64,000 nt of DNA from Octopus sinensis (lineage: Eukaryota), in contig NW_021831988.1 in the NCBI RefSeq assembly GCF_006345805.1, forward strand, positions 62,001 to 126,000, in the 5' to 3' direction. Within the stretch, counting starts at the first letter, position 1. The number at the start of each line of letters is the position of its first letter. The notes beneath the pieces are model-generated. The model ran no database searches and was not told the origin of the DNA. It saw only the letters and a program-made list of their open reading frames with translations. Positions 241 through 62,592 of this stretch are shown in pieces. The position numbers and the translations under genes were made by a program.

Positions 241-1620
241 TCAATTGGAAGATCCTTTATGCCGAACAAAATTCCGCTTAAAAAACTTTTTCCGTGAACT
301 AGTCGGTCTAGAAAAACGATTAAAATTGTTGGATGGTGAATCAACGTTGTTTGGCTGAGAAGACACTTCCACACGCTGGTCATCCATTCTTGTGAGATGC
401 ATTCTGTCAAATAACTCATTCAGCTGGGATATTTGGGGAGGTGACTTATTGAAGGAAGCAGGAGAGACCCGCTGGTCGTTGAGTCTTCCCCCATCCACCC
501 GCTCAATCAATTCTTCCAACGACTCGTTTAGTACAGGCACAGAATTGAGTTGACACAACCACTTGCTGGCATTCTCAATACCAGAATTAGTCCTCACACA
601 ACACTCGTGGTGTCTCTCCGCATATTTTATTGCATCCTTGACCAAACCAAGACTATGAAAACACTCGCTAATGACGAGAGACACTTGCAGTGCCCGCTGG
701 GGATCATCCCTGACTTGGGAATAAACTTTCTCGTACACCTCCAACGCCTTGATGTACTGCTCGGTCATCCAATATGAATATGCTAACGTCTCCATTGTTA
801 GTAGACGCGATGGCCAGTCAGAATGGGCGTGGTCGATGGCAGAGGAATACCACGGAATGGCCTCCTCGATTTGATCAGAGAGAAGAAAACAATTTCCAAT
901 ATTCACTTGGCAATCCGACACCAAAAACGAGTCCCCCGCCTTCCTGGCCTCCTCCAACCTCTGTTCATTAAATAGTCAAATCAACCAATTTATAATACTT
1001 CCTGGCGATGGGAAAGTGCCCGTTCAAATAAAAGCAGTAAGCCAGAAAGCCATGTGCATTCCCCAAATAATCCGAAGACGAAATATAATGTTTAATGTAG
1101 TAAGCAGATTTATCCAATAATTGATGGACTTTATTCTCCTCCAAATCCGGTCTTCTGGACATGATTAGATAGACTACTGCCAATGTCCAAAATGCCTTCC
1201 CCTTTAATTCCTTTCCATTTAAATGACTGCTATACTTTATTACGCAGTGAATTGGCTATTTTCATTTGAGAAGTCGTCAGGTCAATGGCATCGTCGAATC
1301 TGCCAAGTAGGCTGAGAACAGTCGCGACATTCCCCACTGCCTGTGCCTCCCCCATTCGATCTTTGATGTCCCTGTGAGTTATATTGAACGTGATACATGT
1401 TCAGAGATAAGTCCTTTTTGAATAAATTTAAGGAATCTTCATATTTCTCGAGATAAAAATAGGAACTTCCAAGGTGAGAATAAATTGAGCTTAAAAGCCG
1501 TTTATTGCCAGTACCAGCTTCTATGGCCTCTTCCAACAATTTGGCTGCTCCATTATAGTCCCGATTAACAAATCTTTGGGCACCGTGGAAGGCTAGTACG
1601 TCGCAGTTGGGAGAAGTCAT
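241..1620 (-). CDS. GPSM2: G-protein signalling modulator (Pins/LGN/AGS3): TPR repeats plus GoLoco motifs
   Basis: N-terminus CDVLAFHG..AIEAGTGNKRLLSSIYSHLGSSYFYL resembles LGN (CLELALEG..AVQVGTEDLKTLSAIYSQLGNAYFYL). Two GoLoco motifs: ELIERVDGGRLNDQR and ELFDRMHLTRMDDQR. Three 25-nt introns. Confidence 0.85.
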
Positions 1621-1964
1621 TATATTGAGTGCTTGGTGGGTACTATTTAAACCAATATGCACCACAACAACAAAGTAATATTATTTAGCGCTCGATATTA
1701 CTAATTTAAATAGTTTAATTACAAACAAGGCTTTCTATAATACCAATAAATAAAATCCAGACGTCAACGTCAAAGAAAGGGGAAAAAAGTAATTTGTGTT
1801 TTGCAGTTAACAAAGGAGTAATAAAGCAAAAGATTATATTAGATATAAAAGTGAGTGATTCGAATAAGTAATTTAGCGGAAGTAAAAAAAGTGAAAAAAC
1901 ATGACATTCAAAAGTAAGAAATCAATCAAAATGGAAGAATCAAAAAATCAGATTAAGTAAGAAA

Positions 1965-3003
1965 TCAGAATGCAAAAACCAAATCCATATTGACGCCCAG
2001 TTTCTTTAGATTTGGTTTACATGCAATGTTTATCATGGGGGAGGCCCACACAACAAAACCAAAACATTATCTGCTATTCCTGGACAGCAGTTTGCGATCA
2101 TATCCCCAGAAATATAACCAACACTCCCATTATAGTCCTCAACCCCCTCACCCACACTATCAACTGTAAATGAAAGTCTAAATCTCCTAGCAAATTGATG
2201 TTCCATAAGAACCAGTCTCTCCCTCAAAAGAATGTCATGAACAGTCTACAATAGCAAATATAAAATTACTCGGTTAGCAAACAAAAGGGTGAATTGAGTG
2301 AGGTCGAATTCATCTGCGAACGAGGCCTCGAGAATCTGGAACATGGGAGTTATTCCACTCCCCCCAGCAATCATCAATACACGCTTATAATGTTCTTTCG
2401 GGCATTTTTGTCTTTGAAAATATCCTACAGAATTATTAAAAATGTAAATTTAATTCGATAAAACTATTCAATTAACCTCTTCCGAGATATTCGATTTTAC
2501 CAAATGGGCCATTAAATGTCACTGAGTCCCCAACCTTACATTGGTCCAAATATTGTGTCATTTTCCCGCCGGCGGGAAATTTAGGGTGAACATTCGGGTG
2601 GTAAACCTCGGAATTAATAATATAAATACTTTAATCAACAGATCAAAACTCCCTTTGGTGTTGAAATTTGATACAGGAGTGTATTTTCGGCATACAGTCT
2701 CCCCCTGAATGTCGGCATGGACACAAAGACAATTTCCAACAGGGAGGCCAAGGACATGTTCAGTGGTGGGGAGTCCCACAGTCAGGATAATAGTATCAGC
2801 AGAGATATTCTATGTATTGGCTATGCTTGATATGCCTGTCTGTCTATTATTTTCAGATTATGTATGGTTGACTGATCTTTCAGAAGTTTCAATTCGTTTT
2901 TCTTGGAATATTTTAGAAATATATAAATGACGATTGACACAATAATTAATAATACAGACAAATATGTGCTAAACTAATAATAATACAACATCATGAAAAC
3001 CAT
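1965..3003 (-). CDS. CYB5R3: NADH-cytochrome b5 reductase with N-terminal membrane anchor
   Basis: Motifs [40 protein letters not shown] and CGPPPMI. Five introns of 27, 26 (GC-AG), 23, 52 and 24 nt. Confidence 0.93.
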
Positions 3004-3097
3004 GCTGCCCAATTAAATACCATCAAACTGTATTTTATTAAAATTGACAATTTTTATTAAATAATACCAAAATATTAAATTGTTCATTGATTTAAAG

Positions 3098-4612: not shown

Positions 4613-5413
4613 TTAAGTACTTTGAGGTTGTTCGGTCTCAGTTGTATCAGCATCAGCGGTATTAATGAGAGGAGGGGGAGGACATGGAGTGTGGAGTAGT
4701 GGGGCTGACACAACAGGAGAAAGTGCAGTAGAGGATGGTAAAATGGGGGCAGTCTGTCCAGGCACAAAGAATAGACTGGTCGGAATGACTTTCCCACCAG
4801 CCAAAGTCGTAGCTAAGGGTATCCCAATCGTCTGATTCCTGTACTCGGCCAGCTGTTCTACCAACAAATTATTCGTGGCTCTCAGATCTGAAATTTGCTG
4901 CTCAATTTGAGTGACCCTTGCTCGAAGGTGAATATTCTCCTCCAAAAGTGACACTCTGAAAATCTCAAAACACCAACCCAACCTCTGAGACTTTTCATAG
5001 AGAAGAGTATCGACAGTCCGTTCATACTGATGGCGTTTGGCTGCCCCGAACTCAGATTCAGTGGAGACGGGGGAGTGCAATTCCATCATGTACTCTGACT
5101 TGGAGATGTGTCTGTATCGACATTTCCCATCCCTCCGACACTGTCCATTCAAGTAGTCCTTGCAGGGAGGGACATAGTAAGGTGGCTGCATGTGCTGCTG
5201 CCTATAATATGGATTGTAGCTGCCATATGCCGCCGGCAGGAGAGCTCCGCGAGGTACATGCAGGTATTTACAGCTTAGACGTGTGCATCTTCCGTTTTGA
5301 AAGTCGTGACAAATTGGAGTCATTTCGTGGGCTTCTGGAGGGTAACAGTATTCGTTCGGGGTTTGATTCTCTGTATAGTCGTTTGCAGAATAATAATTGT
5401 GATTTTGTTCCAT
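4613..5413 (-). CDS. ZC3H10: CCCH zinc-finger protein, ZC3H10-like
   Basis: Two CCCH fingers (CHDFQNGRCTRLSCKYLH and CKDYLNGQCRRDGKCRYRH) and the coiled coil LLEENIHLRARVTQIEQQISDLRATNNLLVEQ typical of ZC3H10. Probable 27-nt intron at 4956-4982. Confidence 0.75.
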   Translation of the reverse strand: MEQNHNYYSANDYTENQTPNEYCYPPEAHEMTPICHDFQNGRCTRLSCKYLHVPRGALLPAAYGSYNPYYRQQHMQPPYYVPPCKDYLNGQCRRDGKCRYRHISKSEYMMELHSPVSTESEFGAAKRHQYERTVDTLLYEKSQRLGWCFEIFRVSLLEENIHLRARVTQIEQQISDLRATNNLLVEQLAEYRNQTIGIPLATTLAGGKVIPTSLFFVPGQTAPILPSSTALSPVVSAPLLHTPCPPPPLINTADADTTETEQPQST

Positions 5414-10963: not shown

Positions 10964-11720
10964 CTAAAACTCTCCAGAACTGAAATCAAGAAGCCTCGGA
11001 AATTTGACTTTCCTTTCGGATAACAGACTCTGAGAGTGACTGAGCGTAGACATCATAATTCGAATATCGGGGTTGGGATATATTTGAAAATAATCCTGCA
11101 GCCCAGAAATGACATCACTGGCTAACTGGAGTGAGTCAATTAGATTAGACGACCTGATCCCGTCTGCCAAGATCCAGTAACTCGTCATATTCCTTGATGT
11201 GGAACGGTCTCTGGAGAACCAAAAGCATCAGAACGGACTGTGTCCTGCTCATCAAGTCACTGTCACGTTCACAAAGTCGACTCAAATGGGTGTGGATGAA
11301 CTCAAGTGATTCTTCCACGTTCTGTCCCCTCACAAGCTCAATCAATTCCTGAATCTACCACTCAGTCCACATGGACAAACCAAACACTCGCAAAGGATGT
11401 CCTGCCGCTGGTGAAAGAAGCCCGGACATTGCCTGATCAAGGACACTCTGGCACTCCTTAATTCCCCTTTGATGATATTTTCCCGAGTATTTTTAAATAA
11501 AAAGGTCATTTTATTATCCTGGTCATCCACTTGGCTTATTTTAGCTTCTTTTCTGAACTGCTCTGAAATATCCGCAAAGCCGGCTACAAAAGTATTAAAC
11601 TGCCACCCAACAAAAGCGGAGAAAGTTGTAAACCATTCGATTACATTCCCCGTTTGAATCCTTTGTTTTTACTTCCTTCAACCACAAGTCGTGATCAATT
11701 TGGACATGGTTATCGGGCAT
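10964..11720 (-). CDS. GID8: GID8/Twa1 CTLH-complex subunit (LisH-CTLH-CRA)
   Basis: LWLKEV..NRMVYNFL..GFADISEQFRKE, IELVRGQNVEESLEF and C-terminal KVKFPRLLDFSSGEF (human KVKYPKMTDLSKG). Introns of 28, 26 and 28 nt. Confidence 0.8.
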
Positions 11721-12223: not shown

Positions 12224-13179
12224 TCACTCATCATCCGAGGACTCCTCACGATGTCGAATAAACTCCTACAATCAACACAAACAACTAAACCTCAGCTAAA
12301 GACAAGGCCGCCTGCCTGTCATCCTCCGAGACTTGGCCAAACAATCCACCCGTCTCAACCCCAACATAACTCAACTCACATTCCACTCTTTTCAGCCTCG
12401 TCCGATCCCTCACCGAATAAATCCTACACATAAAACACAACAATCCAACACTTTCGCCGCCTCCCGAATAAGTTCGTCCTTCTCCATTCCCCCCAACTAA
12501 CAACTACCAATAACTACCCACGTTAACAAGAGCTTCAATCTCCGTCCGTGCTGCGTGGTGGTTCTTCCCAAAAGCAGTCCCAAAACATCGCTAAAATAAG
12601 GAGGAGGACATACATAGACACTCCCAGAGGCATCTACTGAACAACACGTAGGCCGACCGTGTTCATCCAGACCGGCTAAAGCAATATTTAATCCGAATGG
12701 TCTGAATGCGGAATAGAGGGTGTGGGCGTGGATATACATCGACATCCGAAGAGACAGAGTCTACAAATAATTGATATGGTCACGTTTATTGGCATTTCAT
12801 GACCGTTTTCGGCCATATATTCTCGACTTTGCTTTCTTCCGTAGTCGACGATGTGGTAGGCATCGGCTACCATTCCAGAGAAGGTCTGCTCGGTGAAAAA
12901 CTGATTCTACCATTCCAGCCGACTGGGTGATGTTAAAACATCTTGTTTCCTTCTCTGATTCATAAAGGGGGCCCTTTACGGTCTTGTCCACTGCAAAAAC
13001 AACTCCAGTCTTTCCTACGAGGCATACCACAGTGCTATGATAAGACAGGGTGACTATACTTGCTGTTGTCCACTGCCTTTTGGGCGTATTTCACCTGAAA
13101 GACGCTTCCGTCGGGGGCAAATTGAGAAGCAGACAAGTCGTACTATTAATTAATATATACGGCATACTCCGTCGTGCAT
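12224..13179 (-). CDS. PSMA3: Proteasome subunit alpha type-3 (alpha7)
   Basis: [49 protein letters not shown] and acidic C-terminus EESSDDE. Eight introns of 23-26 nt. Confidence 0.92.
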
Positions 13180-20027: not shown

Positions 20028-21144
20028 ATGTGGTTTATATTGTTATCTCTATTAAATCACGTTTTCTCAGAAAATGTACAAAATATCAAACTGATACTTA
20101 GATAACCGTAAAGAGATATGACCCCACAAACGAAAGCTCCGCCGTCTTCATAAGCTACGAATCTGGGAATTATGTGGTCACATATGTCGTCAGTATATTG
20201 AACGGTCCCTCCGTTATGACGATGAACAACACCAAGGATAATCAACCTGCCGAAAATCATCCTCTCATCATCTCAGAGACACTCCAAAATTCAAAACACC
20301 TCAACTTCTTTTTAGGATTTGTCCTCTCTCAAATTGTGGACAACGGGACTGATAAAAACGTGACTTACTCCTGTGGGGATATGGATTGGCGGATCAACTC
20401 ATCGATGTGTCATTCTGGCCCGGATCCCTGCTTTATTGCTATCACATCGGGCAGTTTCAGTGTGATGGTCACCCTGAATGGAGAAGAGGACAAAAATTCT
20501 TATCCAAACCTCAAATTATCCCCCAAGAAGGTGGGAGTGGAGATGATCGCGGAGAATTATTCGAGCATGTTCAATTCGTCGAATTTGATATTCGAGGTGA
20601 CGACTTTCTTCCAGGAAATGGTGAGTCCTGAGCTGAGTAACTATCGGGTCATCAACGACATTGCCATTCCTGGAGTGTTCCACGTTTGTCTCCTATTTAT
20701 TGTCAGTTTAGTCGCATTCTCTCATTTCCTGATCCCAGAACTGACCAAATATTTATTATGTGGCCTAAAATATATTTGTCGTCACCAACGGGTGGACAAA
20801 ATGGTAACTTGGTGGACGTGAAGAGTCTTGTGGGGACCACTCTGTCTGGTCCAGTGCAAATGGGGGAGCCTTTTTTTGCGAGTGGGCCGATCAACGTTGT
20901 GGGACGTGTTCTGAGGGTTCCCTTCTTAAGTGAAGACTACCAGAAGAGTAAATATGTCTCCTGGTAGTCCCTGGTATTGGACTTTGGTAGGACTTTTACT
21001 GTCACGATCGGGAGGGCTACTCCGGAGAATATGACTTGGATGTACGTGATTATTGGATCCGTCCTTGCATTGCCTCTCTTGGCTGTGGTGGGGTACGTGG
21101 TTTACTTCCGAGTGAGGATGGGAGGGTATTCCATTCTTTCGTGA
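20028..21144 (+). CDS. GLMP: Glycosylated lysosomal membrane protein (NCU-G1)
   Basis: Signal peptide, many NxS/T sequons, NDIAIPGVF, YQKSKYVSWTFTVTIG, C-terminal TM helix and GYSIL (GYxxL) lysosomal sorting tail. Introns of 26, 23 and 27 nt. Confidence 0.7.
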
Positions 21145-21839: not shown

Positions 21840-23050
21840 GAGGGTGAACAATATGAAGAAAAAGAATAAAAAATTATCAAATTCAACAAAAACTAGAAAT
21901 TATTGATTTCAAAAAAATAATCCTGATGTTACTCAGGAAAATTTGGCTCAGTGGTTCAATATACTTATTGGAGTGATCAATTCCCCGTTGAAGAAAATGC
22001 AATTGGATGGATCAAGGCATCATAAACGAAAAAAGAATATTATATTTAAAAGTTGTACTGTTAAAATATATGAATCACTATATGCATGGATTCAGAACAA
22101 ACGTTTCTGTAATCACACCATAACTAATGAAATGGTACGCGAAATGGCACTCATCAAGGGCTTCAGGAAAATTTTCTAAATAATGAATAACACTGTTATT
22201 ATGCACAAATATGAAAAGAGATAAAGAGCCTCCGTTGGTAATCGGAAAATTAAAAAATCCTCATGGCTTTAAGAATATAATACAGTGAATCCTCGCAAAT
22301 GGCCATTTTTGGTACATAGAGATTTTATGGCCAATTTAGAAAAATGGCCAATTGAAAAAAATCAATATTAAAAAATAAATAAACACGTTTAAATTTATAA
22401 AATAAAATTCAATCCCTAATTCCTTTTTATTTGCTCTTTTTACATTTTCTTTGTATTTTCTTATTGCAGTAATCAGCGAAACATCATTCTCATTTTCTGC
22501 ATTACAGTAAAGTTGCCTTTCTATTCTAGTTAATGTCTTTGCAATATCTTGTGGAATAAATGTGAGAATCTGTCAGCCAGAAGCTGACACGAAACACTGT
22601 CATTTTCTTCTTGTAGTTATAATTGTGTGTTTTTTCAAGAAAGTGAGCCGAGTATAACGTCCACGAGAAATTTTATAAGACATGTGTTAAAAAAATAGTT
22701 TATTTTCTAATTAAAAAAATAATAATTCAAAAATTGGCCAATTTGAGAATTGGCCAATTTACTAAGAAAATTAATTTTTTTCTTAGTAAATTGTGAAAAA
22801 TTGGCCAATTTAAAAATTGGCCAATTTGCGAGGTGGCCAATTTGCGAGGATTCACTGTATGAATAATCTGGGGATTCAATATGAAAATAACAATAAATCT
22901 TGGATGACCAGTTTTATTTTTAAAAATTGGATTGAAAGGTTAAATGAGTGTGGAAAATAGACAGTTTTTTCTTTTTTAGATAATGCACCAGTCCAGAAAA
23001 TTAAAAAGAAGGAACTTAAAATTACCGATTACATGAAACGTTTTTAATTA
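21840..23050 (+). mobile_element. Tigger/pogo transposase relic (host of the MITE at 22283)
   Basis: HTH-like VTQENLAQWFN and LYAWIQ..ITNEMVREMAL. After the MITE: IQYENNNKSWMTSFIFKNWIERLN..LDNAP. Confidence 0.7.
22283..22857 (-). mobile_element. pogo-family MITE (deletion derivative of the element at 42883)
   Basis: TIR cagtgaatcctcgcaaat, TA TSD and internal ttggccaa repeats. Near-identical to both ends of 42883-44102 in reverse orientation. Confidence 0.92.
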
Positions 23051-23714: not shown

Positions 23715-24148
23715 ATGTTCTCTTACATATTTTTGGCGATTTTATTTCATTTTATGAACTCTTCAAATGTCACAAATGTTAGGAATGTCACGAATATCCC
23801 AAATGTCACAAGTGTTACAAATATCCCAAATGTCACAAATATCCCAAATGTCACAAATATCACAAATGTTACAAGTATCACAAGTGTTACAAGTATCACA
23901 AATGTCACACATTCCAGAAATGTATTAAAAATGTTGAAAATAATACCATTTAGACAAATTTTGCGACAACAACTCAACTTTCAAATTTTTCTTCAAGATC
24001 TGTAGCCAATAAACCCACTAAAATTGCCTTCTTAACTATTCTAGGCTTAATGGTGCTAATTCCAATTGTTGGCATTATTTTCATATGCACCAATCAACTA
24101 AAATTCAAAGAATATTCAAAAGAATTGAAATTATCAAATAAATTATGA
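23715..24148 (+). CDS. Small type-I membrane mucin-like glycoprotein (orphan)
   Basis: Signal peptide MFSYIFLAILFHF, then NVT/NIP/SIT tripeptide repeats, a 32-nt intron, a TM helix IAFLTILGLMVLIPIVGIIFIC and a short basic tail. Confidence 0.72.
23766..23909 (+). repeat. 9-nt coding tandem repeat (aatgtcaca/aatatccca/agtatcaca)
   Basis: About 16 degenerate 9-nt units visible directly. Confidence 0.9.
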
Positions 24149-26815: not shown

Positions 26816-27230
26816 CTACTTATTGCTAAATCTCTCAATTTTCATTTCAGCTTCCGCCAACTAAAGTTTATTAGACATGAAATACCATATCAAGGAGAAT
26901 TTCAACTTTAACTTTAAGAAGGTTATTTTCTTTAACCACCTTTGCCATTTCGTTACAAAGTTTTTGGTCGGTTTCGAAAGAATTTGCACCATCGGGGATT
27001 GCTATGACAATCAAAAATACAAAAATAGAACTTGCTCTCCAAAGACCGTCCTCAAAGCGAACCTCAGTCGTTCCGGAACGAAGTTTAATTTCATTTATTT
27101 CAGGGCCGAGTTCGTCACGCAATTGACTAACACTGTGGGTCCGGTTTAATGAAGAAAGTGAAGCTGATATTTGTTTTCGATCTTGTAATTTTCTAACGGA
27201 GAATTTGTCACTTCCTAGAAGGTTGACCAT
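26816..27230 (-). CDS. CBY1: Chibby homolog (basal body / beta-catenin antagonist)
   Basis: SASLSSL..ELG..RFEDGLW..ENNLLKVKVEILLDMLAE matches Chibby (SASLSNL..ELG..KFENGQW..ENNLLRLKVDILLDMLSE). Introns of 30 and 25 nt. Confidence 0.88.
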
Positions 27231-32250: not shown

Positions 32251-32690
32251 TGTGGTTTTTAGTCAGTAATAGAGAATTTGTGGGTAATCTAAAATAGAAC
32301 TATTGATCAAGTATAATCATAGAGTTAAATTAGCAATTGTTTAATAAACAATTACATAATAAGCGATTTTCAATAAATATAATTTAAATTAAGGGTGTTA
32401 AATCATTAAGAATTAATCAAAAAACACGTTTAAATATTGATGATTATAATCCCTAGACATTGATCTATCATGTAAATAATAAAAATTAATCGAATTACAT
32501 TATTTAAAGTCAAAATCAATTACTTTAATAATCAAGATACCATTAAAATTGTCTCAAATCAACATTATTTTATCCTAATCTATTCCTAATTAAAACAATC
32601 AAATAGAAACCAAAATAAAATTAAAATCAGCCACTTTATATCCAACTTCGAGACTCAAAAGATGTTCATGGAAAGTTGAAGGCGGTGACT

Positions 32691-33762
32691 CTACTGGCTC
32701 CTCCAGGAGCCAGATGTCTGCGCCTGTCGCTGTCCTCTCTTCGTCCTTCCCGGTCTGATATTCGTTATGTATTGCCCCACTGAAGCACAGTCAGATTTAG
32801 GCCTCGGTTCCTCGTATCCCTGATCACTCCGAGTACTACAAATAACTAAAACCACACAAACTCAGAATCTGGCTGAGGCTGGGCGAATGTAGTCGGTCTA
32901 AAAAACTCAGGAGGACAGTGAAAAGGATAGGGCATTCTGTTTCCCACTGGAATCACCACCGGCTGTCTCTGCCCACCCATATTCGGCATCATTGGAATGT
33001 GTTGATGTGGAATCATAGGCATAAACCTCCCCACTTGAAAAATCAGTGGATTAAACACAGCCGGAATTGGGTACCGCACAGGAGTCTGAGCATAGAAACC
33101 ACAAAAAGCACCACAGTGGGAACCTTCCTGCTTGTATTGAGAGGAGTAGTCCTATGTCGAAGTCTCCCTTCATATTCTCTCAATTTAGAGACTATTTGAA
33201 TAGCAATTGCTCTATTGTCGCTATAGATATGCCATTTCTTATCGCCCTTGACCAATGTCTTGCATTCCTCAGAAGTAATTTCCAAAGGAGTTAGAATTTT
33301 ATCCCACAACTCCTGTTGTGTGTTTATTCCCTCGATATCTGGCAGATCCACAATAAAATCGAGAGTATATCCCTTTATTCGGAGACATTCAGAATCCAAA
33401 AGCAGAAGAGGGGATTCTAGGACAGTCTTTAAGACTATCTCACTTCTAACAGCCTCGGCAATTTCGCTGTGTTGAGCTTTAAGATTCAGCATTTTGTTAA
33501 AGCTGGCAATTATAGAGATTGGAACATATCCATCCTGGTCCATTATATTCCGAAGGTAACGATCATGGGAAAGATTCTCGCTGAAATTGTGTTGTGGGGT
33601 ATATACTCTGAGAAATAGTATTCTAGCTGATTTTGAATCGATTCTTCCCTAGTTCTTGTAACTGAGGATGTTGATGAATGATGGACGTCAGAAATATTGG
33701 AGGATACATCTAACTATGACCCAGGTATAACAACCGAATGTGGGGTCATAAGTAGCTTCCAT
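32691..33762 (-). CDS. LARP4: La-related protein, LARP4-like (short)
   Basis: La motif [38 protein letters not shown], followed by an RRM-like segment and a Pro-rich tail. Micro-introns of 25-29 nt. Confidence 0.7.
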
Positions 33763-38370: not shown

Positions 38371-39119
38371 AAAAAAATAGAAGTCAGCCAATGAAACATA
38401 AATAACTTTAATACATCGTGCAACAATATCATTCAAATCCTGCATAGTTTTTTTATAATACGGTGACTGGTCAATTATTATGTTATCCGCTTTGTCAGAA
38501 GTATCAGTATAAATTCGCGGAGTTTTCATGGAACATTTCTTTCTCTTCACCCGAGTGATTTTCTTTCGAAAAAAGATTACGGATTCCTCCATAATGATAA
38601 AATTCGTCTAAATAAATAATTCGAAATCAGCAAACATGCATTGTGGACGTTTCCTTCTCTGTCCCTGTGAGTAATAATATGAAGCTTTAGAAAAAGATCG
38701 AATACAGCTTGTCGGTAGCCAGGTTCCTCAACTATATCAGGTTTTCTTATTTGCAGTATCACAAGATTAGTCGCTTTATTCTGGCGTGTTATTTAACATC
38801 ATTACCAAATTTTTTAAATAAACATGCATCTTCCTTGTATAAATATTATATCGGGCTTATTGATATTGAACATTGTGAGTTTAAGAATATTAATCAAGGC
38901 CCGACTTTTTTATTCAAATCATTTTACTAAATATTGATTTCCATACATATTTAGATCCAAACATTGATATATTCGTACTCCAAAACATGCTTCAAATTGA
39001 TTAATTAAATCAGCAATTATAGATATGTATTCTTCATAAGCAGCGCCTTCATTGTTTTCATATAGTGAATAAAAATGAGATTTATCTCCCCATTTAAGTG
39101 AAGTCATCCATAAATAGAA

Positions 39120-39835
39120 CCGAAATAACCACCGTCGAACATATGCCAACTCGCAAAGATGAGAAGTGGCTAAACGTCCGAAAACTCGGATCTCTTGTTG
39201 GCGATTCCGAAGATATTACCAGACAAAAAATATTATCAACAATTGCACTTAAAAAACTTCAATCTATCTGGATGAGAAAAAATCAAATTTTGACCAAGAT
39301 GCGCCTACGATTATATGATGCATTTGTCCGATCTGTCCTCACGTACAACGCAGGTACTTGGGGAACATCAAAGAAAAACATGGAGCAACTTGACTCTTTC
39401 CACAGGGGTCAACTGAGAAAACTCCTCGGCTATTCGTGGCCGAAGAAAATATCAAATGATAAATTATACAGGTTAGCTAACTGTGGGCCTATAAGTCTAA
39501 ATATACTTGAAACCCGCTGGCGCCTGTTTGAACATATTTTACGAATGAAGAAAGAAACACCTTGCAATATGGCCATGGAAGAATTTTTCGGCCATACTGA
39601 ATACTCTAAATATAGAGGACGTCCAAGGGACTGTCTTCCGGGAATACTTACGAAGGAATATGTTATGATCGGAGGCCGATTGATGGATGCAGACGATCTG
39701 GACGAAATCGGAAAGAGGGCAAGACGACGGAAGGGATGGAAGGGGCTAAGGACAAGAATAGTTAAAAACATGGCACAGGCGAAACCATAAATTTTGTTTA
39801 CTGGCAACGCGAACGTGCATTAACTAACTAACTAA
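39120..39835 (+). mobile_element. 5'-truncated RTE LINE with (TAAC)n tail
   Basis: KLGSLVG..RLYDAFVRSVLTYNAGTW..LDSFHRGQLR..RGRPR, followed by taactaactaactaa. Confidence 0.88.
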
Positions 39836-41205: not shown

Positions 41206-42800
41206 ATGTTTTCATTTTTAATTTGTTACTTTTTTTACAATCAGTACTACACAAGGCAAACCTATGTCGCTAGTTTTCAAGTACAAAATAAATCTGCAGA
41301 CGTTCCAATGGAATATGAAGAAAATTTTTTCATAACTCGAGTATTGTTGTAATTGGATCTGTTGTTTAGGTTGATCATTATGGTTTCGAAAACAATGACA
41401 CATTTTCTTTAAGATATCTTTATTCAAATAAGTATTCCAGACCAGGAGGACCAATTTTTTTCTATGCTGGAAATGAAGGTCCCATTGAGGATTTTGTTCG
41501 AAATACAGTTTGTTAAAAATATCCGTAAATACGAATCAGGGCTTTATTTGGGAATATGCTTCCGAATTCAACGCAGAAATTCTTTTTGTAGAACATCGTT
41601 ACTATGGACAATCTGTTCCTTACCAAAACATAACACGAGTTTATTTATTTTATGATGGTTAGAATGATGGGGAATTGTTGAACTATTTAACTGTGGAGCA
41701 AGTAATGTCTGACTATATCGACCTCCTCTCTACATTGTACCCCAACAGACCAGTCATTGCAATCGGAGGATCATATGGGGGGATGTTAGCAGCCTGGATG
41801 AGGATGAGATATCCCGATATTATAACAGGGTTTACTAACGTATTCTCAAAATAGAGCACTTGCCTCATCAGCGCCCATTTACCAATTTGAGGAATTTTCA
41901 GACTGTACGGGTCCCTATAATACGGTCACCTCAAGTTTCGCCAATAATTTTCCCGAATCAGCAATAAACATCAGGAACATGTGGGACACGTTTGATTCTC
42001 GTGGTGATATACAAACACAATAATTTATAGATAATGAATATTTAGAATTTTTGTGGCAGAAATTGCAGTTATGTGATTACAACGGCAAGAGCGTTTCTGA
42101 TTTGATGTATTTTTTGAATTTGATATTTTTCAATTCTGCAATGTTGAATTATCCAACACCATCGAGTCTTATGCTGCAATTACCGGCTTATCCTGTCTAT
42201 GTACTCCTCGCTTTACATATTCTTAGTGGATTTCCAGTTTCTTTTCAGTTCCTAATATGACGAAAGATGATTACATCCAAGCAATCCAACTTACACTGGA
42301 TCTTTATTTTAACTATACCGGAGATAGTCCCAACTGCTACAACTTAATGTCCGTGAATGGAGACGTAGGTGATTTCATGTGGGACTACCAGGTCGTCTTG
42401 TTCACTTAATTCTTAGTATTGTACGGAAATGAACATGTATATTTGCTCAAGGGAAAGTCCAAAAAATATGTTCCCGCCGGAAATATACAACAAAACTGCA
42501 GATACCGAATGGTGCCAGAATTACTTTGGAGTCACTCCAGATCCCTCTTGGCTTCCGAGAGAATTCAACGATATAAACTTGACATCTTTCAGCAATATAA
42601 TCTTTAGCAACGGAGAATTTGATCCTTGGATGACTGGTGGAGTACTAGAAGATATTAACGACAGCGTCGTGTCAATTTTTATAGAAGGGGGAGCTCATCA
42701 TGTTGATTTGAGGACATCGTCGCCAAATGATCCTCCTAGTCTGATTAGGGCAAGACAGAGGGAATTGGAACTATTTCGTCAATGGATTGATTCATACTAA
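41206..42800 (+). CDS. PRCP: Lysosomal Pro-X carboxypeptidase (peptidase S28)
   Basis: GGPIFFYAGNEG, EHRYYGQS, catalytic GGSYGGMLAAWMRMRYP, SNIIFSNGEFDPW and GAHHVDLR. Introns of 24-32 nt. Confidence 0.92.
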
Positions 42801-42882
42801 CTAATAATAACACTTAACTAAATATTCGTTACTCGATTATATCAAAAAAATGGTTAATAAAATACAAATTGGCTGCTATATA

Positions 42883-44102
42883 CAGTGAATCCTCGCAAAT
42901 TGGCCACCTCGCAAATTGGCCAATTTTTAAATTGGCCAATTTTTTCACAATTTACTAAGAAAAAAATTAATTTTCTTAGTAATTATTATTTTTTTTAATT
43001 AGAAAATAAACTATTTTTTAATCACATGTCTTATAAAATTTCTCGTGGACGTTATACTCGGCTCACTTTTCTTGAAAAAAACACAAATTATAAACTACAA
43101 GGAAGAAAATGACAGTGTTTCGTGTCAGCTTCTGGCTGACAGATTCTCACATTTATTCCACAAGACGATCTCGAGAAAGACGATCAATAATCTACTGCTT
43201 AATAAAGACTCTATTTTACGGGATTCGAAAATCTATCAAAATTCGTATAAAGCTGCTCACAAACCAAAATTTCCTACGCTTGAAGAAAAATTGATCGAAT
43301 GGATGGATACAATAGAGTCTAAAGGTATTAATTGAAAACCAATTTTTAGGTGGTTTTTTGAATGATTCCTTAATATCGTGTAAGGCTGCGCATTTTGCCG
43401 AAGAGCTACAACTTAGTAACTTTAAAAATTCTAATGGATTTCTGGCAAAATTCAAAAAGAGACACGGTTTTAGAATGCTAAAATTACATGGAGAGATGCG
43501 AACAGATAAAGTAGTTGACATTAATTCTTTTCGTGAAGAATTTAAAGAAATTTCTAAATCGTATAAGCCTGATCTAATTTATAATTTGGATGAAACTGCA
43601 TTATACTACAAGCTTATTCCATCGAAAAGCGTATGCAGAAACCGATTCCAAGGATACAAAAATTTTAAAGACCGTGTGTCTATTATGCTTTGTTCAAACA
43701 TGACCGGAAGTCATAAATTGAAACCTGTGATGATTGGAAAACCAAAAATGATTGGAAAACTTGTTTACAAGAGGATCAAGAGTCTGAAATTAGCGACGAA
43801 GAGACAAAATCATATATCCACTCGATAGAAAAGATATTGCAAAGACATTAACTAGAATAGAAAGGCAACTTTACTGTAATGCAGAAAATGAGAATGATGT
43901 TTCGCTGATTACTGCAATAAGAAAATACAAAGAAAATGTAAAAAGAGCAAATAAAAAGGAATTAGGGATTGAATTTTATTTTAATAAATTTAAACGTGTT
44001 TATTTTATTTTTTAAATATTGATTTTTTTCAAATTGGCCATTTTCTCAAATTGGCCATAAAATCTCTATGTACCAAAAATGGCCAATTGCGAGGATTCAC
44101 TG
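42883..44102 (+). mobile_element. pogo/Tigger element with internally deleted transposase
   Basis: TIR cagtgaatcctcgcaa and TA TSD. CENP-B HTH (FPTLEEKLIEW..FKNSNGFLAKFKKRHG) and IYNLDETALYYK. The second half of the DDE domain is missing. Confidence 0.92.
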
Positions 44103-47288: not shown

Positions 47289-48867
47289 CTAGAATCGCTG
47301 ATTTAAAAGAATATCAATGGCCATATTGATATCTCCAGAAACACGGTCAAGAACTAGAATAGCCAGACACAGCAACCTTGAATGTTCATCTCAGTATTAA
47401 TAAATCCCATTGCCGCAAGTTGCTGTAGTTGTGATGCATATCTCTCGCGAGGAGGCTGAGTAACGACGGGCCGAGATATATTCTGCTGTCCACTGTTAAA
47501 TATTGCAGACATGTCAGTAAGGCCACTCACAAACTGAGGAGCCTCGGCTGCCAATTCCTGCATTCCTTCCTGAACTTTAAGAAGTGCAGCCATAGCACGA
47601 GGATTGGACAACATTTGCTGAACAGTCGGATTCCTCATTTGTTGAAGCATTATCGGCATATTGTTTATAATCTGTTCTTTTAACTGAGGATTGGAGGCTG
47701 TGGCAGGCATAGAGTCGACCATATTCCTCAGCATTTCAGGATTGGACGAGAATGACTCCAACATGGACGACATGTAAGACGACTGCATCATATTTCTCAT
47801 AAAGTCAGGATTCTCCATTGCCTGCTGCACAAAACTCTCCAATCCAGCATTCCCCACTCTCCTATCTTCAAATATTAAGAAATAAACACAACCCGACTGC
47901 TGACTGGTGTTCGGGGCAGGAGTGCTTGCCCACAAATTCGGCAGTGGCTGGTTCATTGAATCTCCGGGGACTGTTGGTGGAGGAATGTTAGTCTGAGACT
48001 GTCTCTGAGAGGACATTTCTGCCACTGCCTGTCTCATTGGTTCTTCAACATCGGCATACATTCTCTGCAGTTCCCCCATTCCACCAGGAATATTCTACCC
48101 TCATCAAATAAACCCAACTTCCAAGTTTGACAAAGATCGGTCGTAATTTCTCATCATTTCTGCCAACATTGAAGGATTGTTGGCCAATTCCAGAGTTTCT
48201 CTCATCATTTCCGGATTGTTGATTGCATGAGCCAAATCAGGGTTGTTCTAAAAAGTCAGATTAGTGGATTACGTCGAGGATTTCCCTCAGTTGGGGATTC
48301 GTCTGCATTATCGACTGCAAAGTCTCAGGGTTGCTGAACAAATTCTGAACCACTGGACTTTCCATTAAATTTCTGAAGGATTCGGGGTTTGCCATCAGCT
48401 ATGAGACTCAAGGGGGACAAACTGACCTCTCTAGTCATTCTTTGCTGTAATTCTGAGAAATTGTGAGACCCGAAACCCATATTTTGTAATCCTTGGACTC
48501 CTCCCAAATTTCCAAGATTGAATGGAGAATTTTGGACGTTGGGGGGCTGTGTTGTGGAAGGATTTGGTGTCTGCTTTGGCTGGGAATTGGACTGAGATTT
48601 GATCCAAATTAGAATTGTGTCGTTGTCGGCTACTCCTGAAGCACTGACGGATTGGGCATCTTCTTTGAGGACTCGTCCTTTGTGAATTAAGACCACCATT
48701 GGGAAAGGAGCTGAATATTTTTCTGAAAGGGTTTTTCGGAGCTGAATTGGTTTTAGTATTTATATTACCTCTCCTATTGACTTTTGAGAATCGAATTGAA
48801 TGTTCGAAGGTGGAGAAACACCACATTTTATATTAATAGAAATTGTTGAACCACCAGAAGCTTCCAT
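47289..48867 (-). CDS. UBQLN1: Ubiquilin (UBL-STI1-UBA)
   Basis: [18 protein letters not shown]1 repeats ([51 protein letters not shown]) and [17 protein letters not shown]. Six introns of 23-28 nt. Confidence 0.93.
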
Positions 48868-56275: not shown

Positions 56276-57605
56276 ATGAGGTGTGTGCGTTAACAAAAAA
56301 ATCTAGTTTAAATTAGGCCAAATCCACATAACTATGAAAGACTTGCAAAATTTTTCTTCCACTAATCTCGACACTTTAAAACATGTAAAGTAATTATTAA
56401 CAAGTAAGCTCTCCACTCTCCACCAAGATGAAAGAATAGACATATATATATCAGATTACATCAAAGCCAAACACAATTTGCAGTCCATCGACTCCCAAAT
56501 AACGAGTACCACCACAACAAGTCCCCACGTACTTAATCACCCAGCAGGCTTGCTCAGGGAACTCTCACACGACTTGAGAAACATGAAAGAAATTGATTCT
56601 TTGATGTCCACGTCTGTCGAACTGTCAGAACTGCAAGACGATTTGCTCATTTCGACAATGCGGGCACTTCTGGTGGAAATTGTGACACAACGAGACTCCA
56701 CGTGTCTCCACATCACTGCCCTTTGTCCCGATTTTTCAGAATTGTGTATTTTTCCCGCCAATTTATTTGAAAATGATGACGTCACAAGTCTGAGTACAAT
56801 TTCAGAGGAGGTGTTATTGGATGAGTTTTCCGAGCAGAAGGATGAGCCATGTGAGAGGAAAGGGGAAGAGAAATGGTCAAGGACTGGCCTGAAAGAACAA
56901 ATTGTGAGAATAATCCAACAAATAGCCAAAAGTGAACTCAAATTGGACAAAATTGTACACATTTTTGAGTCAAACTACAATTTGTCTGAGGATTTGAAGA
57001 ATGTGGACGAATTAATAGAAAGTCTAATGCTCATTCCAGTCCCCCAAATGAGGACATGTGTCAATCCCACAACCCTCCTTAAACTCCTCCTCATTCTCTG
57101 TGCAATAAACTGTCGACTCCACGACCTGGACTTGCAGAGTATTGCCCAATCGGTAGCCTAGACATAAACACGGCCACTCTGAGTGATATTGTGGATGTGA
57201 TGCACCACGAACTGTGTCTGTCCAACACTCTTCTCCTCCTCTTCCAATACTGCCTCAGACTGGAAGAAAATAAGCCCTCTGTGTTGCCCACTCTCCCGAC
57301 GACAGTAATCCTGATTTAGACACGTGTTCAAATATACTACAGGAAGTGAGTGAGCTGTACCACAGAGAGCCCTCCCTTTTAGAACAGTCGATGAGTATTC
57401 TTATCATGCAACGACTCTACCACTACATGAGAGAACATGTGTCGGTAATGCCTGTAATCACACTCAGATGACACTCCCCTCCTTCAGACAGACAAATGGG
57501 TGGACTACATGTGCAGTGGTGTCCATTCTGGTTGTTATTCTCTGTTTGTGTTTGTGGAGGTGCAGTTGCTTTAAACTCCAGAGGTTTGGGGATAGGCCTC
57601 AATAA
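56276..57605 (+). CDS. Hypothetical helical protein with C-terminal transmembrane segment
   Basis: Long exon (ORF 56478-57161) joined by 22-24-nt introns. Ends AVVSILVVILCLCLWRC..DRPQ*. Confidence 0.6.
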
Positions 57606-57653: not shown

Positions 57654-58599
57654 TTAGCGTTTAGCACGACAAATGACGTCCCCGTTCTTGAATATGTCAT
57701 CGTACAGAAACGACAGGAGTCCCGCACCGATTTCGGGGACTGCATACTTTGTGTTACGGACAAAGTCCTCCTTGGTCATTTTGATGCGTTTGTGGGGGTT
57801 GCCCAACTCGATGGACAGAATTATGAGGGAATAGCAGGCAATGAATATCTTATCTATCCATACAACCAATCCAAATACCCTCAGACAGTCCAAGGGAGAG
57901 ATTACAACTGCAAAAACGACAGGCAAACTTGAAAATGAGGTCATTGAGCCAGCCATTGCAGCCAATGGGGAACTGCAGACCCGAAAAAAAGTCCCTCATG
58001 GCACTGGGGAGAAGCTGGCCGGACAAATCGAGTTGCGTCATAAAACAATCCAATACGTCCGGCCTAAAACGGGCCACTTATAGGCAACCTTCCGACGAGC
58101 AGCCAGAGTTTAGGGAAGCCACGAATGGACGACCTAAGAAGGAAGCGAGCAATGCTCTTAGCGTCATCAGTCAGTAGGTTCCGGGAAAACAGGAAATCGA
58201 GTCCCTGGAATAGTGGAGGGGAGTACAGCGTTGGGACTGGTTTGGAGGAGTTCGACTCCGTGGCACAGGTGGAGAAATATAGTTCGATGGGGGGTGTGTT
58301 TGCTACAATTTCCTTCGCATAAGTGGCCAAAAAAATTGTAGCAAACCCTGGCTTATATGATGACTAGTAAATGATTACTGTTGCCATAATAGGTTGTCCT
58401 GGGGGAATTGTCGCCATATGCGCTCGAGAGATACCAAGTCCGACAGCTGCAGGTAATTGAATATTCCAATCAGGGCATTCACAGGCAGGTTTTCTAACCC
58501 GCATCGAGGCTTCTTTTTCACTCCGAGGGAGCTGTGGTGTTATATTATTGGAATAAACCGCAATCCTGGTCGGGAAATGCCTTTTAGATTAATTCCCAT
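57654..58599 (-). CDS. FBXO8: F-box only protein 8 (F-box + Sec7)
   Basis: F-box LENLPVNALIGIFNYL..DNLLWQ and Sec7 LPSAMRDFF..LIFKFACRFCSCN..CYSLIILSIELGNPH..KMTKEDFVRNT..LYDDI. Confidence 0.88.
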
Positions 58600-58866
58600 A
58601 ACAACAAAGATTAGTGAATTATTTTATTACTAATAATATGTTAAGCTATTTAAAATAATAACAAATATAAAAATTTATTATAAAATTAATATTTTAAAAT
58701 AAAAATTTTTTAACCAATAATAACCATGTTGTTCTTTAATTTTAGATAAACCAACATTAGTTTTTAAATAAATCAAGATTTTATTTTTTAGTCAGTTAAA
58801 CACGAAATATTTAATTTTCCTATGTAATAATTACTAATTAAAAATAAAATTTTAAATAAATAAAGA

Positions 58867-59474: not shown

Positions 59475-59579
59475 TTGTGGACATTTAAAAAATATTTATA
59501 AATTTTATTTAAATTAAATTAGAAAAAAATAGTTTAAATTTGAATTGTTCAAGAAATATATAAAATGCTTTTTCTATAA

Positions 59580-60890
59580 ACTGGGGGAATTTTGACACAT
59601 TTCTAACCATTACTCCCCATACGGAAAACGTGTTGACGAATAAGAACCTAAACTATCTTAAAGCATTTCTTGGAAACTTGGAAGACGCCAAAGGAACTTA
59701 CGGATTAGAGTGTCTATACACCCAATACATTAAACCGACAATTGGTTACGGATGTACAGTATGGGGAAGCAATCTAGCATATACAGTACGACCCCGCCCC
59801 AATAGAAAAGTGCCCTTAAATATAGAGGGTGCCCCTAAGATAGAGGTATATATAATTTTTACATTTTAAAAGCAAATATCTGTATTTTTAATAATAAAAT
59901 ATGTTTTTTCGTATTAAAAAAGAGGAATTTATTTATTCTATGAAAAATAATCAGTTATTTTGAATCCAGTATTATAAAGTTCGATGCAATTTTTTTTGCA
60001 ACAGTTTTCAAGAGAAATTCTGAAACTGAAATCCCATCTCCTCTCAAATTTTTAAAAACTTCAAAGACGAATCGATCAATTCGAATAGAAAGATCTGATT
60101 CAAAGTTCTTAAACGAGTGTTCATCAGAGCACGTTTCTGCTTTTGAAAATCCTTTTCCAATTTCTTTTTAATTTTTGAGACAGTTCCTTTCCCAATATTA
60201 TACAAAATTTAAATCTATTTTAATTATAAATACAAAATAAATATTATTTTAGAAGATCTAAAGGATCTTAAAGTATGAATTTATTCGTTTTTAAATGAAA
60301 AAAAGCAGGAAAGATTAAATAACCAAATTTTTTGTCGAGGGGTGTAAAATCGACAAATTTTTCTTTCAGAAATATCTCCTTTCATTAATGATTCGGAAAT
60401 CTTTTGCTTCAAGTTCCGACTAAGCTTCGCTGGCATGCTTAAAAATATTTAAAAATTAATTAAATAAAGAATAAAAATGAAATAATAAATTTTAATATTA
60501 TCGATTGAAAAAGTGCTTCAATAAGCGGAGTTTCGTATTTCAAATTTAAGCTTCTTATTCGTCAAAAAATATACAAAAACTGAGAAATCATTCAAAATAA
60601 TTTTTATTAAAAAATCGCCCCAAAAACAGAGGGTGCCCCAAGGCCGGGGTTTTATTGGGGCGGGGTCGTACTGTATAAATGTCAAAAAAATCGACAATAT
60701 TCAAATAGAAATTGTAAACCTCCTAGTGAATGTCACGGAAAACATAATTCAACCAAGGGGACTAGAAGAAATCGTGAAAGAAAACGGTGGAGACCTCAGG
60801 AAAAAAGTCCATGTTCGGGATCCCTGACTTCTTAGACCATGCGCTGTAGAACACAAAGAAAAGATACGAAGGTTTTTAAAAGAGGCTGAA
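59580..60890 (+). mobile_element. LINE fragment split by a pogo-like MITE
   Basis: LYTQYIKPTIGYGCTVWGSNLAY reads on in frame as INVKKIDNIQ once the MITE is removed. Related to the LINE at 37620. Confidence 0.7.
59784..60673. mobile_element. Non-autonomous Tc1/pogo-type element
   Basis: 21-bp TIR cagtacgaccccgccccaata/tattggggcggggtcgtactg, TA TSD and subterminal agagggtgcccc repeats. Confidence 0.9.
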
Positions 60891-60970
60891 ATAGTTAATT
60901 ATTGTTATGACGATGTTTTTGGTTCTAATAAATAAAATAAAAACATTTAAACAATAAATATTTTTAAAAA

Positions 60971-62592
60971 ATGTCGAGGTTGTACCAAGATGTATACAAT
61001 GCATACGAAGTCAACAGTGACCCCAAAATGTGCCGATTGCTACTAAAACTGAACCAAGATATCCCTACCAACGGAAAGTATACCTCAAATCAAAGTAGCC
61101 CATTTAATATGAGACTTTTTAATTCCTTCATAAATGATGACTTCATCTCCGACTCACTCAAACATTTCAACAAACTCGAGTTTTTATTTTATTTTTACAA
61201 CCAGACATTTCAACCAAGTGGAGTTGGCCAGTGAGCGAGATATCCGTTCTCTGTCCGCCTATGACCAGAACCTTCAAGACAAGGAAGAAAAAATATCCTC
61301 AAAAATCATATTTGACTTGATTAAAAAAGAACCCCCAATTAAATTAGTATTTTCAATCTGACTATTTTAGAATAAATCTACCGAGACTTCAACGGTCCCT
61401 ACTGAAGAGGGATTTTTGACTGCCAGACAAATGATGGAACCAAAAAATATTTCTTCTCACAAAAAACCCCAAAAAGCGAGTGACCCCTCAAATAGTGACC
61501 CCGTGACTAATCGACCCCCCATGATCGACTCAAAAATTGTCCAAATGATCGAAAACGAAGTTTGGTGGTGAAAATAACGAGATTATATTCCCTTCAAGTC
61601 ACGTGGGCTGGGATGACGTCATCGGTCTGGCACAAGTAAAAACAAAGATTCAAGAACTTATAATTTGGCCTATTTTACGACCGTATTAGCCAGTGGTGAT
61701 GTCCCAGTGATTTGTTTGTGGGACTGCGGGGACCTTCGAAAGGTCTGTTGTTGTTCGGTCCTCCGGGAACTGGGAAGACGATGTTGGGGAAGTGTATTTC
61801 CAGTCAGTCCAAGTCGACCTTCTTCTCAATAAGTGCGTCATCCCTTGTGTCGAAATGGGCAATGATTGTATGTGAGGGTGTAGTACGGGGAGAGCGAAAA
61901 GTTGGTTCGCGGATTGTTTATGGTGGCCAGAGAAAGACAGCCGTCAGTCATTTTTATAGACGAGATTGACAGTTTGTTGATGAAGAGGAAGGATGATGAG
62001 AGCGAATGTACTCGGAGGATTAAGACTGAGTTTCTTGTCCAATTTGTAAGTAGAATAGTCTTATTTGGCAAGGATGGGTTGGGAAATGACAGTAAAGAGA
62101 TGATTTTGGTGATAGGGGCTACTAATAGGCAATTATTCGGATCTGACTTGATAGACCACAGGACTTGGATGAGGCTGCCCGTAGACGTTTTGTGCGACGA
62201 ATGTATGTGCCCTTGCCCGATAGTCAGGACAGAATGGAATTGGTTTCAGTCCTTCTGAAGGACTATGACAATTCCTTGGACAATCAGGACCTTGAGGAGA
62301 TTGCCCGACGTTCAGAATGTTGTGGTATTTGAGTTATTAGTAGACTTTTCTGCTTCGGATATTACTGCGTTGTGTCGTGAAGCAGCGCTGGAGCCACTAA
62401 GAATGCTTTCGTCGGATCAAATAAGGAATACTTCTCGTGAAGAGGTATATGAGTAGGATTAGTTGGGAGATCAACCCGATCACTATTTCACATTTCAGAA
62501 AGGCATTCCAGGACTCTCGGTCTTCAATTTGCGTTGAGAGTTTAGCTCAGTTTGAACAGTGGAATGAACGATTTGGCTCGTGCCACTCCTAA
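60971..62592 (+). CDS. FIGNL1: Fidgetin-like 1 AAA ATPase
   Basis: [67 protein letters not shown] and C-terminal WNERFGS. Nine introns of 22-27 nt. Confidence 0.9.

What the first reader, a model, noticed from the sequence alone, without database searches (positions are those of the whole stretch)
241..62592. ~25-nt introns in nearly every gene with almost no splice-signal content: candidate ruler-type spliceosome
Seen: about 80 introns inferred by restoring conserved protein frames are nearly all 22-32 nt, most often 25. Examples are PSMA3 (25,25,25,23,23,25,26,25) and FIGNL1 (25,24,22,25,25,27,26,25,25). Many lack a polypyrimidine tract or an obvious branch motif, e.g. gttggtcaaatgtggaaatgggcag in MRPL48 and gtatagcagtcatttaaatggaaag in GPSM. 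Known: among animals, introns this short are reported for dicyemids, and they are too short to hold U1, U2 and U2AF side by side in the canonical way. Inference: splice sites are set mainly by distance, implying a modified spliceosome.
Basis: partly seen in the sequence, partly recalled or inferred. Interest (0 to 1): 0.75.

Follow-up and report, generated by a model that had tools for sequence, protein, structure and literature searches.

The report
Dicyemid parasite's 25-base introns
The genes here are split by gaps of only 21-30 bases that are almost certainly introns; the DNA likely comes from a dicyemid (a tiny cephalopod kidney parasite already known for such introns) assembled along with its host, and the introns are likely cut by an ordinary spliceosome that uses minimum distances to choose the intron end but still needs weak sequence cues to tell introns from exons.

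Summary
The tiny gaps are real. Alignment blind to splice signals gives 21-34 nt for 69 of 70 homology-fixed introns, and a gene model started from a flat length prior converges to 22-30 nt, mode 25. The window is not host DNA: it lies on an unplaced contig of a 2.7-Gb mollusc assembly, and RPS13 points to a dicyemid other than D. japonicum. Such introns and weak splice logos are published for dicyemids, and this scan found them before on other contigs. The ruler idea is half right. AGs up to 20 nt from the donor are ignored, and the first AG from 21 nt on is used in 64 of 69 introns. But a degenerate branch-like A sits 16-21 nt from the donor and 6-9 nt before the end. Exons hold about three same-length GT..AG decoys per true intron, and the strongest decoys are depleted. 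U2AF35, U2AF65, SF1, SF3B1, U1-70K, U1C and Prp8 are present; the parasite's snRNAs were not located. GC-AG donors are about 2-3%. No RNA evidence was obtained. Verdict: a known phenomenon in another species, with a sharper geometric description.

The parts
239..1620 (-). GPSM/LGN-like gene (TPR + GoLoco); introns 1372-1396, 1211-1235, 961-985 (25 nt each)
   Evidence: Pfam TPR and GoLoco, atlas GPSM clusters, model posteriors 0.99-1.0
2033..2900 (-). NADH-cytochrome b5 reductase-like gene; intron 2246-2269 (24 nt); 5' end approximate
   Evidence: PDB match of exon 2639-2809, E 1e-8; model
2810..2835 (-). 26-nt GC-AG intron in the b5 reductase gene (inferred by eye; restores the frame)
4613..5413 (-). 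CCCH zinc-finger gene; one possible in-frame 27-nt intron 4956-4982 (posterior 0.56)
10964..11720 (-). unnamed gene with introns of 28, 26, 25 nt
12224..13179 (-). Proteasome alpha (PSMA3-like) gene; introns 13143-13167, 13035-13059, 12886-12910, 12761-12783, 12591-12613, 12497-12521, 12424-12449, 12266-12290 (25,25,25,23,23,25,26,25 nt, all GT-AG)
   Evidence: model posteriors 0.82-1.0, open 253-aa frame; weak Pfam Proteasome hit
20216..21144 (+). NCU-G1-like gene; introns 20684-20706 (23) and 20964-20990 (27)
26816..27230 (-). Chibby-family gene; introns 27002-27031 (30) and 26861-26885 (25)
32599..33762 (-). La-domain (LARP-like) gene; introns of 25,26,26,26,26 nt
41464..42800 (+). S28 serine carboxypeptidase (PRCP-like) gene, 5' part incomplete; introns of 28,24,25,27,26,25 nt
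42880..43120 (+). end of a Tc5/pogo-type element; used as a marker of the parasite's contigs
   Evidence: 45 matches, all on unplaced contigs, none on C1-C30; Pfam HTH_Tnp_Tc5/DDE_1 just downstream
47289..48832 (-). ubiquilin gene; introns of 28,25,24,23 nt and one of 24 or 27 nt ending at 47866
56334..57605 (+). unnamed gene; introns of 24,23,23,23 nt
57654..58504 (-). Sec7-domain gene; introns of 27,25,25 nt
   Evidence: posteriors 0.95-1.0
60971..62592 (+). FIGNL1-like AAA ATPase gene; introns 61180-61204, 61347-61370, 61560-61581, 61683-61707, 61859-61883, 62046-62072, 62129-62154, 62319-62343, 62445-62469
   Evidence: signal-blind and signal-aware alignment agree on seven; first two from the model
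61859..61883 (+). 25-nt GC-AG intron in FIGNL1
   Evidence: homology; forcing GT-AG only costs 75 score units for the gene; the ab initio model prefers a shifted GT-AG pair (0.68 vs 0.30) that breaks the conserved motif
62129..62154 (+). 26-nt GC-AG intron in FIGNL1 with a canonical-looking branch pentamer, A at +18
   Evidence: posterior 0.97

Best explanation
The window is likely dicyemid DNA co-assembled with a cephalopod host, and its 21-30 nt gaps are likely ordinary U2-type introns shrunk against two minimum distances. Shown in sequence: the length peak, GT/GC..AG ends, neglect of AGs up to 20 nt from the donor, use of the first AG beyond about 21 nt, an A enriched 16-21 nt from the donor and 6-9 nt before the end, and genes for U2AF35, U2AF65, SF1, SF3B1, U1-70K, U1C and Prp8. 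Inferred: that A is the branch point; a lariat loop under about 16 nt and a branch-to-AG span under about 6 nt are not tolerated, which sets the 22-nt floor; the 3' site is the first suitable AG after the branch; deletion pressure pushes lengths to the floor; U-richness, YAG, the exonic AG before GT and the weak T-n-A-Y-T motif together mark introns, and selection removes strong look-alikes from exons.
For: Window on 280-kb contig C8459 of a 2.72-Gb assembly whose chromosomes carry molluscan haemocyanin arrays. Window repeat only on unplaced contigs; 13 host loci share nothing with 982 kb of parasite contigs. RPS13 has the three intron positions and peptide motifs of D. japonicum; 0 of 120 database RPS13 hits carry the two motifs tested. 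Gold set of 70 introns, 69 at 21-34 nt. EM from a flat 10-60 prior gives 22-30, mode 25, about 1900 introns. Out-of-frame internal AG observed/expected 0.91, 0.66, 0.87 at <=20 nt, 0.28 at 21-23, 0.08 at 24-30. A peak moves from +16 (22-nt) to +21 (30-nt); two-sided model LL 485 vs 283 (5'-anchored) and 322 (3'-anchored), shuffled 100/77/76; A in the double window in 89% of introns vs 62% shuffled, 58 of 69 in the gold set. Strong exonic decoys depleted to 0.74, 0.63, 0.46 of synonymous shuffles. 27 of 34 Prp8 gaps sit at host intron positions, host median 1411 nt.
Against: No transcript or lariat data, so splicing and branch use are inferred. The parasite's U1, U2 and U6 were not located, so altered snRNAs are not excluded. 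5 of 69 gold introns skip an AG at 21-24 nt, so first-AG is not strict. The large intron set is ab initio; only 30 of 55 homology introns reached posterior >=0.8 in it, and the decoy classifier partly reads intron-versus-codon composition. The free branch model has more parameters. The RPS13 contig shares only 69-75% repeats with the window's contig set in the 10 kb held. Taxon rests on one gene compared by eye plus host context, not on a tree.
Confidence: 0.65

Rival explanations
1. True ruler spliceosome: a modified U1-U2 bridge measures a nearly fixed distance from the donor, picks whatever nucleotide lies there as branch and the nearest AG as acceptor, with sequence largely irrelevant.
For: Length alone picks the acceptor in 67 of 69; positional consensus only about 1.15 bits; GC donors 2-3% vs 0.37-0.86% in five model species; TG is the commonest non-AG end in a relaxed model, 11 of 1787 expected counts; SF1's U2AF-binding motif has Phe in place of Trp.
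Against: The A position slides from +16 to +21 with length rather than staying fixed; lengths span 22-30 and vary by gene (Prp8 mostly 25-31); about three decoys per intron in exons must be rejected by sequence; U2AF35, U2AF65, SF1, SF3B1, U1-70K, U1C, Prp8 are intact.
Confidence: 0.2
2. Lengths reflect mutation and compaction only; recognition is by diffuse U-rich intron versus GC-richer exon composition and exon-side cues, and the A peak is a by-product.
For: Introns 32% GC vs exons 44%; composition alone gives AUC 0.80; length correlates with intron GC (rho -0.19) and with neighbouring introns (rho 0.18).
Against: Sharp floor at 21-22 nt and sharp AG depletion from 21 nt; A peak with G depletion is positional and exceeds shuffles.
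Confidence: 0.1
3. The contigs come from another short-intron parasite (for example a myxozoan), or the gaps are assembly errors in host pseudogenes.
For: Myxobolids have 22-27 nt median introns; no named dicyemid protein was returned.
Against: Host is a mollusc; RPS13 motifs match D. japonicum; gaps end in GT/GC..AG and fall at host intron positions while the host has its own separate Prp8, SF3B1, U1-70K, U2AF genes.
Confidence: 0.05

Closest known systems
Dicyema japonicum ultra-short introns (PMC13644364 whole text and parts of supplement; PMC6736024 passages)
   Same: Median 24, Q10 22, Q90 32, minimum 20 nt in 29,387 introns; reduced 5' and 3' logos; weak A stretch that moves away from the AG as introns lengthen; same RPS13 intron positions.
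   Different: Here mode 25; RPS13 introns 27, 26, 25 vs 24, 24, 24 and about 81% identity over a 90-aa exon (hand count), so another species; +3 is A or T equally (40% each) rather than 'GTa'; GC-AG share, AG floor and decoy depletion were not found in the passages read.
Dicyema sp. and D. acuticephalum introns (PMC6543705, PMC2222250, passages)
   Same: Median 27 nt; mean 26.2 +/- 1.9 nt in 16 introns confirmed by cDNA versus genomic cloning; ancestral positions kept.
   Different: Species identity of the present contigs not determined.
Myxobolid (Myxozoa) short introns (PMC13644364)
   Same: 22-27 nt medians, weak signals, U2AF1/U2AF2 retained.
   Different: Cnidarian fish parasites; convergent. 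Their U2 was found and is canonical; here U2 was not located.
Stentor coeruleus 15-16 nt introns (PMC9505925, passages)
   Same: Tiny introns, positional branch A without strong consensus, retained spliceosome.
   Different: Branch A almost invariant at position 10/11 and two lengths only; here A is present in about 85-90% within a sliding window and lengths span nine values.

Membership tests
U2-type spliceosomal introns | GT/GC..AG termini | tested here: met
   67 GT-AG and 3 GC-AG in 70 introns where blind and signal-aware alignments agree; allowing any dinucleotide changed no FIGNL1 intron
U2-type spliceosomal introns | Removal from mRNA | not testable with these tools
   No RNA run listed
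U2-type spliceosomal introns | Branch-point adenosine near the 3' end | tested here: inconclusive
   Positional A enrichment with T-n-A-Y-T context; lariats not seen
U2-type spliceosomal introns | Polypyrimidine tract | tested here: not met
   Only T at -6/-5 (54%, 50%) over a 42% T background, and Y at -3
U2-type spliceosomal introns | Major spliceosome proteins present | tested here: met
   U2AF35 and U2AF65, SF1, SF3B1, U1-70K, U1C, Prp8 84% identical to host, all on tiny-intron contigs
U2-type spliceosomal introns | U1, U2, U6 snRNAs with canonical pairing regions | tested here: inconclusive
   Only host copies or pseudogenes surfaced; host copies crowd the lists
Dicyemida | Found in a cephalopod host | tested here: met
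   Host chromosomes carry molluscan haemocyanin in runs of seven units; reading seven units as octopod-type is recalled
Dicyemida | Sequence affinity to known dicyemids | tested here: met
   RPS13 motifs and intron pattern shared with D. japonicum; one gene, compared by eye
Dicyemida | 18S rRNA or multi-gene phylogeny | not tested
   No dicyemid reference sequences were available to the tools
Fixed-length ruler introns (Stentor type) | One or two lengths and an invariant branch position | tested here: not met
   Lengths 22-30; A from +16 to +21
Myxobolid Myxozoa | Fish or annelid host, cnidarian affinity | tested here: not met
   Molluscan host; RPS13 matches the dicyemid row

The most novel reading that the evidence does not exclude
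Dicyemid spliceosomes place the branch point by geometry: U1 and U2 dock side by side on a 16-19 nt loop, so position outranks base-pairing, which lets GC donors run at three times the usual rate and occasional TG acceptors through; SF1's Trp-to-Phe change and altered snRNAs would be the adaptations. This assembly would then hold a second long-contig dicyemid genome in which to test an animal spliceosome at its steric limit.
Probability: 0.2. Interest if true: 0.7.

Novelty: new member of a known kind. Interest (0 to 1): 0.33.

Why it matters
Ultra-short animal introns are published, but how they are recognised is stated as open. The data here give testable numbers: a floor near 16 nt from donor to branch, near 6 nt from branch to AG, first-AG choice, and selection against look-alikes in exons. 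They also show that many unplaced contigs of this host assembly are a parasite genome, which would mislead host annotation and offers a further dicyemid for comparison.

Tried and rejected
No RNA holder was listed for the window. PSMA3 homolog search returned nothing. First EM run diverged through a normalisation error of mine and was redone; one search had a bug in the long-intron term, fixed. CpG observed/expected did not separate host from parasite (0.44-0.82 vs 0.73-0.98). An early guess of a myxozoan in a fish assembly was dropped. Parasite snRNAs: family and pattern searches gave host copies, host pseudogenes or chance matches; Rfam on the whole 280-kb contig found no snRNA. The U2AF family search gave no answer; U2AF was then found with host exons. 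Rows dropped: duplicate AAA loci L043, L044, L046 and the poorly aligned L036; 12 of 55 AAA introns where blind and signal-aware alignments disagreed; Prp8 gaps over 60 nt (missing host exons in the reference) and two short Prp8 gaps without blind agreement; the 46-nt intron in the 69-intron tests. Non-AG acceptors: TG 11, GG 8, CA 6, CG 6 of 1787 expected counts, too near the noise to call a class. Model-called 'introns' in LINE relics (28425-29792, 37954) are treated as likely frameshift artefacts.
Full report
Observation. Both quoted introns are in the window. A spliced aligner with no splice-site term and any gap of 10 nt or more placed gaps of 22,25,25,27,26,25,25 nt in FIGNL1, identical to the signal-aware result. 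Over ten AAA genes, 43 of 55 short introns agreed between the two modes. Prp8 aligned to the host's own Prp8 added 27, giving 70 introns: 69 at 21-34 nt, one at 46, mode 25, 67 GT-AG and 3 GC-AG. An HMM trained by EM on 982 kb of related contigs, starting from a flat 10-60 nt prior and no positional intron model, converged to 22-30 nt, mode 25, about 1900 short and 59 long introns.

What the DNA is. The window is at 62,001-126,000 of a 279,572-base contig in a 2.72-Gb assembly with chromosome-scale scaffolds. Those chromosomes carry molluscan haemocyanin arrays. A window repeat matched 45 places, all on unplaced contigs; 13 host loci had no BLAST match to the contig set, whose members share repeats with each other. 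Host and tiny-intron versions of SF3B1, U1-70K, Prp8, U1C and U2AF exist side by side. RPS13 on the tiny-intron contigs has three introns (27, 26, 25 nt) at the positions of the three 24-nt introns of Dicyema japonicum in the supplement of PMC13644364 and lacks the same others. By my hand count 73 of 90 residues of its long exon match D. japonicum, against 59-71% for the 120 database hits listed, none of which has the two motifs tested. The four RPS13 loci on two contigs (two read, near-identical) and single loci for SF3B1, U1-70K and Prp8 suggest one species. Inference: a dicyemid other than D. japonicum, co-assembled with a cephalopod.

Signals. In 1097 confident introns the donor is exon AG (A 51%, G 46%), GT, then A or T (40% each); +5 G is 26%. 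The acceptor has Y at -3 in 80%, G in 4%, T at -6/-5 in 54/50%. Positional information beyond GT/AG is about 1.15 bits, length about 2.6 bits against a uniform 10-60 range. An A peak lies at +16 in 22-nt introns (59%), +17 in 23-24, +18 in 25, +19 in 26 and +21 in 30-nt introns (79%, n=19). A latent-position model gives T-n-A-Y-T with G avoided; it fits better with both distances free (LL 485) than anchored 5' (283) or 3' (322); shuffled interiors give 100, 77, 76. The free model has more parameters. An A lies in the double window in 89% of introns, 62% of shuffles and 59% of exonic decoys.

Is it a ruler? Out-of-frame AGs inside introns are near neutral up to 20 nt from the donor (0.91, 0.66, 0.87 of expected), then fall to 0.28 at 21-23 and 0.08 at 24-30. 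In the homology set the first AG at >=21 nt is the acceptor in 64 of 69 and the length prior alone is right in 67 of 69, against 41 of 69 for the first AG at >=10. The five skipped AGs lie at 21-24 nt. So distance chooses the end. It cannot choose the intron: 191 kb of confident exons hold 3105 GT..AG pairs of 22-30 nt (16 per kb, against about 5.7 true introns per kb), and cross-validated AUC is 0.65 for length, 0.88 for the 5' context, 0.87 for the 3' end, 0.96 for these with the A window. Part of that power is U-richness versus codon structure. Against synonymous-codon shuffles all decoys are at 0.93 of expected, but those scoring above the 10th, 25th and 50th percentile of true introns are at 0.74, 0.63 and 0.46, which fits selection against cryptic introns.

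Machinery. On tiny-intron contigs I found U2AF35 with both zinc fingers and UHM, and U2AF65 with RS region, ULM, two RRMs and UHM; SF1 on the window's own contig with helix-hairpin and KH regions; SF3B1 with ULM repeats and U1-70K; U1C; Prp8, 1723 of 2044 aligned residues identical to the host's, with 27 of 34 gaps at host intron positions where the host median is 1411 nt. SF1's ULM has Phe where a Trp is described as critical; I recall that budding yeast BBP also lacks it, so this is a lead only. The parasite's snRNAs were not located. GC donors are 2.2-3.2% in the model, 3 of 70 by homology, against 0.37-0.86% in five model species; they have exon AG more often (43% vs 21%).

What is known. 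PMC13644364 (whole text; supplement searched and part 62 read; logos not visible) reports median 24 nt in D. japonicum, reduced logos, a weak A stretch that moves away from the AG in longer introns, and canonical U2 and U2AF in myxozoans, and leaves the mechanism open. PMC6543705, PMC6736024 and PMC2222250 (passages) report 27, 38 (mean) and 26.2 nt. Stentor (PMC9505925, passages) is the fixed-position extreme. PMC12239612 (passages) shows parasite genomes recovered from host assemblies. 'GC-AG' does not occur in PMC6543705, PMC6736024 or the searched supplement; searches showed no listing on an AG floor or decoy depletion in dicyemids, but subscription papers such as Ogino 2010 (seen only as a citation) and unseen supplementary figures may hold this. 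Earlier notes of this scan reached the same identity on other contigs; one gives a fixed 16-17 nt branch distance, whereas my data show it sliding to 21.

Verdict. Real and ordinary for the lineage. Interest 0.33.

Noticed in passing
G000 unplaced contigs (e.g. C1794, C6303, C8459, C8597, C8695, C8697, C8703, C9497, C9547): A substantial dicyemid-like genome, with contigs up to 1.29 Mb and several near-identical haplotype copies, sits in the host assembly.
   Followed up: partly
L010:3780-3990 (-), C8459 about 28 kb upstream of the window: SF1/BBP gene whose U2AF65-binding motif ends in Arg-Phe instead of Arg-Trp.
   Followed up: partly
L214, L216, L217 (about 1665-1732 onward) vs L215: Four U2AF35 loci; three diverge from the intact one inside the gene, two sharing one insert and one carrying a LINE-like sequence.
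   Followed up: no
window 2810-2835, 61859-61883, 62129-62154; L035: GC-AG introns at about 2-3%, a few times the rate in model species.
   Followed up: yes
C9547, C8597; window 47866-47892: Four candidate GT-TG introns of 23-26 nt at posterior above 0.6; the ubiquilin intron could end at TG (24 nt) or AG (27 nt).
   Followed up: partly
L167-L169 (Prp8), C1794: Intron length varies by gene and region: Prp8 introns are mostly 25-31 nt and AT-rich; length correlates with neighbours and falls with GC.
   Followed up: partly
L012:3711-4808 and L010:4852-6153: A ligand-gated ion channel (nicotinic-like) gene and a voltage-gated potassium channel gene on the window's contig, the latter with an Rfam K_chan_RES match, in an animal said to lack nerves.
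   Followed up: no
L001:1501-1694: Host U2 snRNA has an extra A just before the branch-pairing region relative to the motif I recalled and to the myxozoan U2.
   Followed up: no
L029, L030, L031, L032: RPS13 is duplicated on each of two contigs (inverted on C7758, direct on C10384).
   Followed up: no
window 22730-22860, 42880-44100, 28425-29792, 37500-38300, 39100-39790: Tc5/pogo-type element ends and LINE relics fill much of the intergenic space; about a quarter of the fetched parasite DNA is repeated.
   Followed up: partly
window 23760-23920: Short degenerate tandem repeat (about 9- and 18-nt units) in an open frame; not examined.
   Followed up: no
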